From: a virus
Taxonomy: Duplodnaviria; Heunggongvirae; Uroviricota; Caudoviricetes
IMG/VR virus record: IMGVR_UViG_2713896788_000026
Reading direction: 5' to 3' (one strand)
Length of the DNA stretch: 6,654 nt
A program made the position numbers and the translations under genes. The notes under the pieces are model-generated. The model was not told the origin of the DNA, did not search any database, and saw only the letters and a list, made by a program, of their open reading frames with translations. Within the stretch, counting starts at the first letter, position 1. Every line of letters starts with the position of its first letter. This document shows positions 2,187-4,124 of the stretch, piece by piece.

Positions 2187-4124
2187 TCAGCCGCCGGACG
2201 CACTGCCGTAGTTCACTCCGGTGATCACCGCCACCGCCGCAGTACGGCGACGACGCCAGTTGATCCAGCGCTCCGCACGGATGGCCACGCTGCCTGTCTG
2301 GAACATGGAAACCAGCTCCACCGGGGACGGCGTGGTACTGTCGCCGCCCGGCTCAGACTGCATTTCCAGTGATGCCTCGCGGGACATATCCACTGCCACG
2401 CCGCCGTCATCCGCCAGATAAATATCCGGGGCATTCACCAGCACCAGCTGGTCACCCACGTACTGGGAGACAATCACCGGCAGCCCCTGGAAGGAGCCAC
2501 CCAGCAGGGTCATGTCCGGGTATTCCTTCTGACCCAGCGCATTTTTACGCATGGACAGTGCCAGGGCATTGGTGCTGGACATCAGCCAGACCGCACCGGT
2601 GGGCTGCAGGTTTGCTGCCACAAACTGTCCAAACGCAGCCTCGGCATCCGCATCCGGGTTACCGGTTGATGCCGTGCCCTTCACATCATGGGTGATGGAC
2701 GCCGGGGAGACATCTGCCACTGCGGCTTTTTTCGGGTCCACAAAGTCTGTATCCAGACGCGCCACCACCGCTTCCGCCAGCGCATTACGGACCAGTGCAT
2801 CAGCAGCCGGACTGGAAAAACGGATCAATTCTTCCGTCAGTACCGCAATGGCCGACACCTTCGCATGACTGAAGGTGATGGATTCAAAATCAAACTTCGT
2901 CAGGGGTTTTGCCTTACCCTCACCCACCCAGCCGGCAGCACCGCCGGACACCTGGGCGTGCACACGGATATTGAATGGCACCTGACGAAGTGCAGGGATC
3001 CCGCCCTGACCAAATCGCCCGATAATGGTCTGCGGACGCAGGTAATCAATAAAGTCCTGTGCGTATTCCTGATATTCAGACAGGCTGCCTGCCCACTGCG
3101 GATCCGTGGTGGTCCCCGCGCCCACTGCCGATTTCAGGACATGATGCAGACGACTGTCATCCGGATACTGACGACGGGCCACTTCCAGGGCTTCAGATCG
3201 GACGCCTTTAGCCGCAGCCAGCGATTTGGCAAAGCGGGCGAAGCCAATCCCCTTATCCAGTTTCTGCTCCACACGGATCACCGGCGCAGAAGCCACCGCG
3301 GCCACATTCCCGTTACCGGCCTGTTTCACCGGCTGCGCCGTGGCGGCCTTACCGGCTTCCAGTTCACGCAGGCGCTTCAGGTGCGCATCCACCTGACGGA
3401 TTTCCGCTGCGGTGTTGTCGTAATGCTCTTCCTCCTCCACATCCAGCGTGCGCCCTTCCTCTGCGGCTTTGGTCATGACCTCCTCAAGGGAGGCTGCCAG
3501 CGCTGCACGCTTGTTTTCAAAACTTTTAATCTGTTCGCCAATATTCATTATGGTCTTTTCCTTATGAAAAACGGTTGTTGACTGTGCCGCAGCGCCGGCA
3601 GAAGATGCGATTTTCACCACCGGTTTCCGGTTGCCGGACGCGGCAGAAAACGGGCGGTCGTAAGATTTAATGGTCCGGATGGTGCATTCCGCATTCGCGG
3701 GCACGGTGACGGCAGACACCTCCATCAGTTCCCAGCGCAGAAAATGCAGTCCGCCTCCGTCCAGAAAGGTGTATTCATGGGGACGGAAGCCCACGGACAG
3801 CCCCCTGACCAGCCCGGTCTTAATGGCCGCCCAGACCTCATCCAGCCGGGCAGCCAGTTGCGACGGCATATCCGGTACGGGCTTCACCAGTGTTGCCGTG
3901 ATTTCCAGCCCTTCGCTGACCCGGCGCACCGTACACTGCCCCACCGGGCGGGAATGGTCATGCTGCCAGAGAAACGGGATCGCACTGCCAAACTCCGCGC
4001 CCTCCGGCTCCAGGATGTCACCATCCCGATCCGGAGAAGGCGTTGACGCAATCCCGGTGATCACCCGTTCATCCTCACTGAAGGATTTCACCGTCAGCAG
4101 GGAACAGGCCCGTTTAAGAGTCAC
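2187..4124 (-). CDS. Prohead protease (HK97 gp4-like, MEROPS S78-type) fused in frame to an HK97-fold major capsid protein with delta/scaffold-like domain
   Basis: ORF track 2187..4124 (645 aa). GTG start with AGGAGG 5 nt upstream. N-terminal 150 aa (ITGIASTPSPDRDGDIL, PFLWQHDHSRPVG, GLSVGF, EVSAVTVPANAEC) match HK97-family prohead protease motifs. Residues 195-330 are Ala/Glu/Lys-rich and coiled-coil-like, like a capsid delta domain. The C-terminal 300 aa (FDFESITFSHAKVSAIAVLTEELIRFS, GAVWLMSSTNALAL) look like an HK97-fold capsid protein. In-frame ATG at codon 193 (3546-3548) with AAGGA upstream. Confidence 0.85.
   Translation of the reverse strand: MTLKRACSLLTVKSFSEDERVITGIASTPSPDRDGDILEPEGAEFGSAIPFLWQHDHSRPVGQCTVRRVSEGLEITATLVKPVPDMPSQLAARLDEVWAAIKTGLVRGLSVGFRPHEYTFLDGGGLHFLRWELMEVSAVTVPANAECTIRTIKSYDRPFSAASGNRKPVVKIASSAGAAAQSTTVFHKEKTIMNIGEQIKSFENKRAALAASLEEVMTKAAEEGRTLDVEEEEHYDNTAAEIRQVDAHLKRLRELEAGKAATAQPVKQAGNGNVAAVASAPVIRVEQKLDKGIGFARFAKSLAAAKGVRSEALEVARRQYPDDSRLHHVLKSAVGAGTTTDPQWAGSLSEYQEYAQDFIDYLRPQTIIGRFGQGGIPALRQVPFNIRVHAQVSGGAAGWVGEGKAKPLTKFDFESITFSHAKVSAIAVLTEELIRFSSPAADALVRNALAEAVVARLDTDFVDPKKAAVADVSPASITHDVKGTASTGNPDADAEAAFGQFVAANLQPTGAVWLMSSTNALALSMRKNALGQKEYPDMTLLGGSFQGLPVIVSQYVGDQLVLVNAPDIYLADDGGVAVDMSREASLEMQSEPGGDSTTPSPVELVSMFQTGSVAIRAERWINWRRRRTAAVAVITGVNYGSASGG

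What the first reader, a model, noticed from the sequence alone, without database searches (positions are those of the whole stretch)
3546..3575. Possible nested major capsid protein made from an in-frame internal start inside the protease-capsid fusion
The protease and capsid domains share one 645-codon ORF. At codon 193 there is an in-frame ATG (3546-3548) with AAGGA about 10 nt upstream, and the peptide from there (MNIGEQIKSFENKRAALAASLEE) looks like the start of a capsid delta domain. This recalls the lambda C/Nu3 nested arrangement: a minority full-length protease-capsid product could be built into procapsids while most capsid protein starts internally. Alternatively the fusion is a lost stop codon or a sequencing error.
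Basis: inference. Interest (0 to 1): 0.55.

Follow-up and report, generated by a model that had tools for sequence, protein, structure and literature searches.

The report
Capsid gene nested inside protease-capsid fusion
A Shiga-toxin-phage head gene that fuses the capsid-maturation protease to the capsid protein carries a conserved second start site at the junction, so it very probably makes both a protease-tagged capsid subunit and, separately, the ordinary capsid protein from one reading frame.

Summary
On the minus strand, a 645-codon ORF (4124..2187) fuses an HK97-type prohead protease to an HK97-type capsid protein. Codon 193 is an in-frame ATG (3548..3546), with AAGGA ending 10 nt upstream.

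The fusion is not an error. The ORF is 100% identical to Stx phage 2851 gp17 and occurs in 1255 of 5426 complete E. coli genomes. It belongs to a large family of full-length fusions.

In this window alone the ATG-plus-AAGGA pattern is at chance level. Comparison makes the case. All 107 dereplicated fused homologues (38-78% identity) keep ATG (97) or GTG (10) at this spot, right after a hypervariable, disordered linker. Shine-Dalgarno pairing there is as strong as at the true gene starts (-7.6 against -6.1 kcal/mol; background -2.3). Local mRNA structure is weak. Relatives with separate protease and capsid genes start the capsid gene at exactly this position.

Best reading: a nested gene. The 69-kDa fusion carries the protease into the procapsid, and a 48-kDa scaffold-capsid protein starts internally. 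No expression data exist.

This is a new variant of the lambda C/Nu3 and HSV UL26/UL26.5 arrangement. Public records annotate one CDS only.

The parts
2187..4124 (-). Full-length ORF: 645 codons plus stop, GTG start, 69.0 kDa. It encodes prohead protease, linker, delta (scaffolding) domain and HK97-fold capsid protein.
   Evidence: It is 100% identical to phage 2851 gp17. RefSeq annotates it as a single CDS, 'phage major capsid protein'.
4130..4135 (-). Shine-Dalgarno AGGAGG for the full-length GTG start, with a 5-nt spacer.
   Evidence: Read directly from the sequence. Anti-SD duplex energy is -10.3 kcal/mol.
3666..4073 (-). Protease domain, aa 18-153 (Peptidase_S78, HK97 gp4 type). H55 (3960-3962) and S110 (3795-3797) are invariant in 71 diverse homologues and are the candidate catalytic pair.
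   Evidence: Pfam PF04586 scores 34.7 bits against a cut-off of 21. The AF2 model has pLDDT above 90 for aa 20-150.
3549..3665 (-). Inter-domain linker, aa 154-192. It is hypervariable in sequence and length and is predicted to be disordered. Its last codons carry the internal ribosome-binding site.
   Evidence: pLDDT is below 50 for aa 154-189. It is the most variable, indel-rich part of alignments A1 and of the 150 representatives.
3559..3563 (-). Internal Shine-Dalgarno-like AAGGA, inside codons K189-E190, 10 nt before the internal ATG.
   Evidence: Duplex energy is -6.2 kcal/mol, which is in the top 10% of positions in this gene. Enterobacterial homologues keep AAAGGAA or AAGGA here although the encoded residues differ (KE, KG).
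3546..3548 (-). Internal in-frame start codon ATG (M193). This is the proposed start of the nested 453-aa (48.2 kDa) delta-capsid protein.
   Evidence: M193 is invariant in A1. The position holds ATG or GTG in 107 of 107 dereplicated fused homologues. Stand-alone capsid homologues begin here. The local 41-nt mRNA MFE is -2.3 against a gene mean of -11.0 kcal/mol.
3255..3548 (-). Delta (scaffolding) domain, about aa 193-290. It is a predicted long helical hairpin (helices 195-222 and 229-262). The C-terminal boundary is approximate.
   Evidence: AF2 secondary structure. TIGR01554 (HK97 major capsid) profile position 3 aligns to aa 204.
2190..3254 (-). Capsid shell part, about aa 291-645, including the HK97 fold. 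The maturation cleavage site is not determined.
   Evidence: Pfam PF05065 matches aa 386-635. Foldseek places the model next to the capsid proteins of Bxb1, D3 and HK97, with E values of 1e-15 to 1e-10.

Best explanation
The gene is a nested pair in one reading frame.

1. Ribosomes that start at GTG 4124 (SD AGGAGG) make a 69-kDa protein: HK97-type protease, a roughly 36-residue flexible linker, the delta (scaffolding) domain and the capsid protein.
2. Ribosomes that start at ATG 3548 (SD AAGGA, unstructured A-rich leader, AAT second codon) make a 48-kDa delta-capsid protein. This is the equivalent of HK97 gp5.
3. Both products share the same delta-capsid body, so they co-assemble into capsomers and procapsids.
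4. The fusion subunits carry the protease inside on their own tether. This replaces the C-terminal targeting tail that free HK97-type proteases use.
5. After assembly the protease removes the delta domains and its own tether, and the shell matures.

Shown here: the ORF, its domains and their boundaries, and the family-wide conservation of a start codon, an SD and an open mRNA at the junction.

Inferred: that initiation really occurs there, that the internal product is the majority, and the assembly steps. The assembly steps are drawn by analogy with HK97, lambda C/Nu3 and HSV-1 UL26/UL26.5.
For: (1) The fusion is real and old. It is identical in Stx phages and occurs in 23% of complete E. coli genomes. 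The best 150 representatives at 38-56% identity are nearly all full-length fusions of 630-680 aa.

(2) About 135 of 151 proteins have Met 3-8 residues before the conserved 'EQI' motif. Most of the others have Val there.

(3) At DNA level, 107 of 107 dereplicated fused loci have ATG (97) or GTG (10) at the junction. About 37% would be expected to have any start codon in such an 8-codon span. All 10 Val codons are GTG, with a chance probability of about 3e-5 given each locus's own Val codon usage.

(4) Mean anti-SD duplex energy upstream is -7.6 kcal/mol. It is -2.3 for all other in-frame positions and for the other internal ATG/GTG codons. 36% of loci fall in the top 1% of their own gene. Many carry GAGGAGGG or AAGGAGGG, for example Chelatococcus and PAJU2. 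The signal survives dereplication at 55-70% identity.

(5) The true N-terminal starts of the same genes average -6.1 kcal/mol.

(6) A scan of the whole gene finds only two places with start codon plus SD in about half of the loci: the N-terminus (51) and the junction (49). The next best has 20.

(7) The mRNA around the junction start is less structured than the gene mean in 97% of loci (-5.65 against -10.37 kcal/mol, Wilcoxon p = 9e-19). The second codon is AAA, AAG, AAT or AAC in 82 of 107 loci.

(8) Relatives with the same gene order have separate protease and capsid genes. Some differ in frame or overlap. Others differ only by one in-frame stop, such as AAG TAA ATG. In all of them the capsid gene starts at the M193-equivalent position.

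(9) M193 sits at the end of a disordered linker, two residues before the first delta-domain helix.

(10) H55 and S110 are invariant, so the protease part appears to be kept functional.
Against: - No transcript, ribosome-profiling or protein data were available for this gene or any homologue.
- The window's own SD is modest (AAGGA, 10-nt spacing, top 10% rather than top 1% of its gene). The bare motif occurs at chance frequency in the window.
- About a third of lineages have weak SD pairing at the junction, and a few have almost none (L140, L141).
- The homologues are related, so the counts are not independent events. Dereplication reduces this problem but does not remove it.
- The only published interpretation I found for a homologue is a polyprotein cleaved autocatalytically. 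It concerns Pseudomonas phage PAJU2 ORF003, 48% identical, and comes from Uchiyama 2009 as cited in PMC8306868.
- Ribosomes that read through from the upstream start could interfere with internal initiation.
- The ratio of the two products is unknown.
Confidence: 0.8

Rival explanations
1. Polyprotein only. Every subunit is made as the 645-aa fusion, and the protease frees itself and removes the delta domain by autocatalytic cleavage. The junction ATG is just a Met codon.
For: It is a single uninterrupted ORF, annotated as one CDS everywhere. This is the published proposal for the PAJU2 homologue. From memory, the tripartite Gifsy-2 capsid gene (Effantin et al. 2010) is described the same way; that paper is cited. 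By my own estimate, a procapsid could physically hold one protease per subunit.
Against: It does not explain four things: the start codon kept in 107 of 107 lineages next to a hypervariable linker; Val at that site always being GTG; SD pairing that equals real gene starts; and the open mRNA at that site.
Confidence: 0.12
2. Evolutionary relic. The fusion arose by loss of a stop codon, and the old capsid-gene start signals merely linger without being used.
For: Relatives differ from the fused form by a single in-frame stop at the junction. Stop loss is therefore the likely origin of the fusion.
Against: The signals persist in fused lineages that have diverged to about 40% identity. Meanwhile the surrounding linker has changed completely in sequence and length. 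Unused signals would have decayed. The SD is encoded through different amino acids in different lineages (KE, KG, PEEG, PQEG), which points to selection on the RNA.
Confidence: 0.06
3. Artefact. A sequencing or assembly error removed a stop codon between two genes in this record.
For: The window contains a run of N at 215-285, so the assembly is not perfect.
Against: The ORF is identical in independent phage and chromosome records and is intact in more than 1250 E. coli genomes. A PHROG profile of 626 positions (phrog_617) covers the full-length fusion.
Confidence: 0.01

Closest known systems
Stx phage 2851 gp17, BP-4795 and YYZ-2008 'major head protein/prohead protease'; RefSeq WP_000173030.1
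   Same: The same gene at 98-100% nucleotide identity, in the same order TerS-TerL-fusion-portal.
   Different: Nothing in the sequence differs. The records annotate one CDS, with no nested product and no comment on how the capsid protein is made.
Pseudomonas phage PAJU2 ORF003, 'prohead protease fused capsid protein' (UniProt 'capsid polyprotein')
   Same: A full-length homologue at 48% identity with the same gene order. Its junction has CAGGAGGG followed by ATG.
   Different: It is described in the literature as an autocatalytically cleaved polyprotein. In what I could read, internal initiation is not proposed.
HK97 gp4 (protease) and gp5 (delta domain plus capsid protein)
   Same: The same protease family (Peptidase_S78, TIGR01543) and the same capsid family (TIGR01554, HK97 fold). 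The scaffold is an N-terminal delta domain of the capsid protein.
   Different: In HK97 there are two separate genes, and the free protease is targeted by its own C-terminal tail (established knowledge). Here the protease is covalently joined to a capsid subunit. Here the portal gene lies downstream of the capsid gene, whereas in HK97 it lies upstream of the protease gene (HK97 order from memory).
Nested protease/scaffold genes: lambda C/Nu3, HSV-1 UL26/UL26.5, archaeal virus HFTV1 gp17/gp17.5
   Same: One ORF with an N-terminal protease and an in-frame internal start that gives a more abundant assembly protein. The shared C-terminal part brings the protease into the procapsid. The HFTV1 case was shown by ribosome profiling, and lambda and HSV-1 are cited there.
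   Different: In those systems the nested product is a scaffold only, and the capsid protein is a separate gene. Here the nested product is scaffold domain plus capsid protein. The protease families also differ (ClpP/S49-like or assemblin there, S78 here).
Salmonella phage Gifsy-2 tripartite capsid gene (Effantin et al. 2010, Virology 402:355)
   Same: A single gene encoding protease, scaffold-like middle part and capsid protein (cited; details from memory).
   Different: From memory, it has a ClpP-like protease and a lambda-like capsid with a decoration protein. No detectable relationship to this gene was seen in the searches here. I could not read the paper, so I do not know whether internal starts were considered.

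Membership tests
HK97-family prohead protease (Pfam Peptidase_S78, NCBIfam TIGR01543) | Profile match above the curated threshold | tested here: met
   PF04586 scores 34.7 bits against a cut-off of 21, over aa 48-152. TIGR01543 matches (46.4 bits, E = 4e-12) but lies below its stricter equivalog cut-off of 59.
HK97-family prohead protease (Pfam Peptidase_S78, NCBIfam TIGR01543) | Conserved catalytic His and Ser | tested here: inconclusive
   H55 and S110 are invariant in 71 homologues at 38-53% identity. Their assignment as the catalytic pair is by analogy only. Activity was not tested.
HK97-type major capsid protein with delta domain (PF05065, TIGR01554) | Profile match above threshold, and an HK97 fold | tested here: met
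   PF05065 scores 52.7 against 24.2. TIGR01554 scores 78.3 against 27.5 over aa 204-584. The AF2 model matches the Bxb1, D3 and HK97 capsid proteins.
HK97-type major capsid protein with delta domain (PF05065, TIGR01554) | An N-terminal helical scaffolding (delta) domain of about 100 aa that starts at the protein's own initiator Met | tested here: met
   Helices 195-222 and 229-262 start two residues after M193. Stand-alone homologues begin at this Met. Removal of the domain by the protease cannot be tested here.
Nested in-frame protease/assembly-protein genes (lambda C/Nu3, HSV-1 UL26/UL26.5, HFTV1 gp17/17.5) | A long ORF with an N-terminal protease and a C-terminal assembly module shared with the nested product | tested here: met
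   Domain map.
Nested in-frame protease/assembly-protein genes (lambda C/Nu3, HSV-1 UL26/UL26.5, HFTV1 gp17/17.5) | A functional internal initiation site in the same frame | tested here: inconclusive
   The sequence signatures (start codon, SD, open mRNA) are present and conserved across 107 lineages. Initiation itself was not observed.
Nested in-frame protease/assembly-protein genes (lambda C/Nu3, HSV-1 UL26/UL26.5, HFTV1 gp17/17.5) | Two protein products, with the shorter one in excess | not testable with these tools
   This needs a Western blot, mass spectrometry or ribosome profiling of induced cells.
Nested in-frame protease/assembly-protein genes (lambda C/Nu3, HSV-1 UL26/UL26.5, HFTV1 gp17/17.5) | The nested product is a scaffold only, and the capsid protein is encoded separately | tested here: not met
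   The nested ORF (aa 193-645) contains the capsid protein itself. I therefore file this as a variant of the scheme, not a member.
Protease-scaffold-capsid single-gene 'polyprotein' (PAJU2 ORF003 type) | Full-length homology to a described member | tested here: met
   48% identity to PAJU2 ORF003 over residues 1-642.
Protease-scaffold-capsid single-gene 'polyprotein' (PAJU2 ORF003 type) | All capsid protein derives from the full-length precursor by autocatalytic cleavage | not testable with these tools
   The comparative signatures argue against 'all'. Only protein analysis can decide.
NCBIfam NF045541 'prohead protease/major capsid protein fusion protein' | Score above the model's cut-off | tested here: not met
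   54 bits against a cut-off of 525, and only aa 48-287 align. That model describes a different fusion family.

The most novel reading that the evidence does not exclude
Fused S78-protease/capsid genes, found in Stx phages and in hundreds of proteobacterial phage lineages, may form an undescribed class of nested capsid gene. Under this reading the main capsid protein starts internally. The annotated full-length product is a minority 'carrier' subunit that doses the protease into the procapsid, and the dose is set by the ratio of two translation starts. Lineages would switch between fused and split forms by gaining or losing a single stop codon, without changing the capsid gene's own start.
Probability: 0.65. 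Interest if true: 0.6.

Novelty: new variant of a known kind. Interest (0 to 1): 0.5.

Why it matters
If the internal start is used, the capsid protein of a very common group of E. coli prophages is mis-described in public records. The group includes many Shiga-toxin phages and is present in about a quarter of complete E. coli genomes. The records list only a 645-aa 'major capsid protein', whereas the building block would be a 453-aa product.

The finding also offers a simple answer to how fused protease-capsid genes avoid putting one protease on every subunit. Two starts in one frame would set the dose, as in lambda C/Nu3 and herpesvirus UL26/UL26.5. Here the capsid subunit itself would be the delivery vehicle.

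The family contains fused forms, forms split by a stop codon and forms split by a frame change, all with the same capsid start. That makes it a natural series for studying how protease targeting evolves. The claim can be tested directly with standard tools.

Tried and rejected
- **Sequencing error or lost stop:** rejected.
- **Solved structures by sequence:** only a weak hit to the Bxb1 capsid protein. No structure of this family exists.
- **Literature:** They found only statements that such genes are fused (PAJU2, MD8, Gifsy-2, actinophage 'capsid and protease fusion') and the nested protease/scaffold precedent. Two key papers could not be read: Effantin 2010 and Duda, Oh & Hendrix 2013. Uchiyama 2009 was seen only through a citing paper. 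An earlier statement of the idea therefore cannot be excluded.
- **The Sp5 morphogenesis paper (PMC5155283):** it concerns a different, short-tailed Stx phage with an unrelated capsid gene.
- **First genome-contig scan:** it returned only 8 loci. The viral and metagenome scans were needed for statistics.
- **Synonymous-site analysis of the region upstream of the ATG:** not attempted, because the linker is too variable at protein level for it to mean anything.
- **The second AAGGA-N-ATG match (2511-2528, M538):** it lies inside the conserved LGQKEYPDM motif and has no family-wide start signature.
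Full report
**What is in the window.** All four large genes lie on the minus strand: small terminase (6409..5846), large terminase (5849..4188), a 645-codon ORF (4124..2187) and a portal gene (1975..200, interrupted by a run of N at 215-285). Pfam places a Peptidase_S78 domain (HK97 gp4 type) at aa 48-152 of the 645-aa protein and a Phage_capsid domain at aa 386-635. NCBIfam's HK97 major-capsid model aligns from aa 204, which corresponds to profile position 3. The PHROG family phrog_617 has 626 positions and covers the whole fusion.

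**Checking the observation.** Codon 193 is ATG at 3548..3546. The minus strand reads CAT AAG GAA AAG ACC ATA ATG AAT ATT GGC GAA CAG. AAGGA (3563..3559) therefore ends 10 nt before the ATG, and the peptide from there is MNIGEQIKSFENKRAALAASLEE. Taken alone it is not remarkable: the pattern AAGGA-N5-12-ATG occurs twice in the window, and shuffles give 1.8 on average.

**The fusion is real.** The ORF is 100% identical to gp17 of Stx2c phage 2851 and to phage phi330. It is 95-99.9% identical in dozens of Stx1 and Stx2 phages, where it is annotated as 'major head protein/prohead protease'. It is present in 1255 of 5426 complete E. coli genomes. RefSeq annotates a single CDS, 'phage major capsid protein', with no nested feature. 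Full-length fused homologues at about 75% identity occur across Enterobacterales. A search of 1.8 billion cluster representatives returned a best-150 list at 38-56% identity that is almost entirely fusions of 630-680 aa. A sequencing error or a recent accidental loss of a stop codon is excluded.

**Domain boundaries.** An AlphaFold2 model built on 71 homologues has mean pLDDT 84.7. It shows:
- a compact protease domain at aa 18-153 (pLDDT above 90);
- a disordered stretch at aa 154-189 (pLDDT below 50);
- two long helices, 195-222 and 229-262, which form the delta or scaffolding domain;
- the shell-forming part.

The C-terminal part of about 285 residues matches the HK97-fold capsid proteins of Bxb1, D3 and HK97. 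M193 therefore sits at the end of the flexible linker, two residues before the first delta-domain helix. H55 and S110 are invariant in the 71 sequences, as expected for an active Ser/His protease.

**Protein-level comparison.** In 21 enterobacterial homologues M193 is invariant, although it directly follows the most variable, indel-rich stretch of the protein. Among the window protein plus 150 representatives, about 135 have Met 3-8 residues before the conserved 'EQI' motif, mostly 4 or 5 residues before. Of the 16 without Met, about 10 have Val and one has Leu at the homologous position. Five stand-alone capsid proteins of 456-478 aa begin exactly at the M193 equivalent. The residues just upstream are enriched in KEG, KG, PEEG and PQEG. 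These translate from AAGGAGG-like DNA.

**DNA-level comparison.** I fetched 8 genomic, 80 viral and 80 metagenomic loci, plus several phage records. After dereplication below 90% identity, 107 fused genes remained. The results are as follows.

- **Start codon.** Every one of the 107 has a start codon at the junction: ATG in 97 and GTG in 10. No fused locus lacked one, whereas about 37% would have some start codon in such an 8-codon span by chance. This expectation is my own rough estimate; only the Met frequency and the GTG share of Val codons come.
- **GTG for Val.** All ten Val codons at the site are GTG, although GTG makes up only 19-51% of Val codons in those genes. The joint chance is about 3e-5.
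- **SD pairing.** The 15 nt upstream pair with the anti-Shine-Dalgarno sequence at a mean of -7.6 kcal/mol. The mean is -2.3 for all other in-frame positions and for the other internal ATG/GTG codons. 36% of loci rank in the top 1% of their own gene and 50% in the top 5%. The signal persists when the set is dereplicated at 70, 60 or 55% identity.
- **Comparison with real starts.** The genuine N-terminal starts of the same genes average -6.1 kcal/mol. The junction therefore looks at least as much like a gene start as the annotated start does.
- **Whole-gene scan.** Only two places have a start codon plus SD (-6 kcal/mol or stronger) in about half of the loci: the N-terminus (51 loci) and the junction (49). 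The next best (20) lies in the conserved DDGGVAVDM motif, whose codons resemble an SD by necessity.
- **mRNA structure.** The mRNA around the junction start is unusually open. The 41-nt MFE is -5.65 against -10.37 kcal/mol, it is less structured than the gene mean in 97% of loci, and Wilcoxon p = 9e-19. For this window the values are -2.3 against -11.0. The leader is A-rich and T-poor. The second codon is AAA, AAG, AAT or AAC in 82 of 107 loci.

Examples span distant hosts. Enterobacterales have AAAGGAA or AAGGA 6-10 nt before the ATG. The GC-rich alphaproteobacterium Chelatococcus has GAAGGAGGG followed by 7 nt and ATG. PAJU2 has CAGGAGGG.

**Split relatives.** Ten loci with the same gene order (large terminase, protease, capsid, portal) have separate protease and capsid genes.
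- Burkholderia phage vB_FUBS1 has a 13-nt gap between them. Moraxella phage Mcat6 has an ATGA overlap. Stenotrophomonas phage SOVA965 and a Pelagibacterium prophage differ in frame.
- Six metagenomic loci have the two genes in the same frame, separated only by a stop codon. Examples are AAG TAA ATG ACC and ACT TGA GCC ATG AAT TAC GCT GAA CAG.

In all of them the capsid gene starts at the M193-equivalent position. Fused and split forms therefore interconvert by small changes while the capsid start stays in place.

**Interpretation.** The simplest account is that the junction start is used. The gene would yield a 69.0-kDa protease-delta-capsid protein from GTG 4124 (SD AGGAGG) and a 48.2-kDa delta-capsid protein from ATG 3548. 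Both share the assembling part, so they should co-assemble, and the fusion subunits would bring the protease inside the procapsid on a flexible tether of about 36 residues. This is the logic of lambda C/Nu3, HSV-1 UL26/UL26.5 and archaeal virus HFTV1 gp17/gp17.5. For HFTV1 the internal start was recently shown by ribosome profiling and proteomics, and the shorter product is several-fold more abundant (bioRxiv 10.64898/2026.09.13.751334). The difference here is that the nested product is not a scaffold alone. It is the capsid protein with its built-in scaffold. That the fusion is the minority product is an inference. It is suggested by the analogy and by the GTG start of the long form in this window, but most homologues start the long form with ATG.

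**Rivals.**
- **Polyprotein only.** A polyprotein with autocatalytic release is what the literature proposes for the PAJU2 homologue. It cannot be excluded without protein data, but it leaves the start-site signatures unexplained.
- **Unused relic.** This is unlikely, because the signals persist at about 40% identity while the neighbouring linker has been completely rewritten, and because the SD is encoded through different amino acids in different lineages.
- **Artefact.** This is refuted.

**What is known and what is new.** The fusion itself is known and is annotated as such in several phages. NCBI even has a model for another protease/capsid fusion family, which this protein does not meet. 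Nested protease/scaffold genes are classical. I found no paper proposing or testing a nested capsid gene inside an S78-protease/capsid fusion. However, Effantin 2010 and Duda 2013 could not be read, and Uchiyama 2009 was seen only through a citing paper, so prior mention cannot be ruled out. I rate it a new variant of a known kind. It is well supported by comparative evidence and untested by experiment. Interest is moderate: a phage-assembly specialist would find it neat rather than startling. It does affect the annotation of a very common prophage gene, and it is easy to test.

Noticed in passing
window 4146-4163 (minus strand), T-run to about 4136: There is an intrinsic-terminator-like hairpin (GAACCGCTGCGGCGGTTT followed by TTTTATTTTC) between the terL stop and the fusion gene. 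It ends right at the AGGAGG of the GTG start. It may modulate transcription or translation entering the capsid gene. The scan found one such site against 2.0 expected, so it is not significant on its own.
   Followed up: partly
window 200-1975 and 2187-4124; L010, L011, L012: The gene order is large terminase, protease-capsid, small ORF(s), portal, so the portal gene lies downstream of the capsid gene. From memory, this differs from the usual HK97/lambda order of terminase, portal, protease, capsid. The order is conserved in PAJU2, Burkholderia vB_FUBS1 and Moraxella Mcat6.
   Followed up: partly
window 215-285: A run of 71 N lies inside the portal gene and breaks its reading frame in the window. 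In phage 2851 and E. coli TR01 the portal CDS is 2580 nt (859 aa), far longer than the Pfam Phage_portal domain (321 profile positions; aa 54-382 of the window's portal ORF). The protein therefore has a large C-terminal extension of unknown role.
   Followed up: no
window 1921-2142 (minus strand): A 73-aa ORF lies between the capsid and portal genes and overlaps the portal start by about 55 nt. RefSeq annotates it as hypothetical, and the phage 2851 record does not annotate it. Small ORFs occupy the same position in PAJU2, vB_FUBS1 and Mcat6.
   Followed up: no
L089, L116, L118, L131, L154, L167: In six relatives the protease and capsid genes are in the same frame, separated only by one stop codon (for example AAG TAA ATG). 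The free proteases end in tails such as ...VKLL or ...PFxIRxIKR, which might be the capsid-targeting peptide that the fused forms no longer need.
   Followed up: partly
P0123, P0132 (about 1090 aa), P0001 (1079 aa), P0004 (784 aa): Some database proteins carry a further 120-440 residues fused to the protease-capsid protein. The precomputed Pfam list names a TerL domain for P0001 and a portal domain for P0004. They may be assembly or gene-calling artefacts, or larger fusions.
   Followed up: no
window 2511-2528 (minus strand): The only other AAGGA-N-ATG match in the window is in frame (M538), within the conserved LGQKEYPDM motif. It shows no family-wide start signature.
   Followed up: yes
window 5846-5849: The small- and large-terminase genes overlap by 4 nt (5846-5849), as expected for translational coupling.
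   Followed up: no
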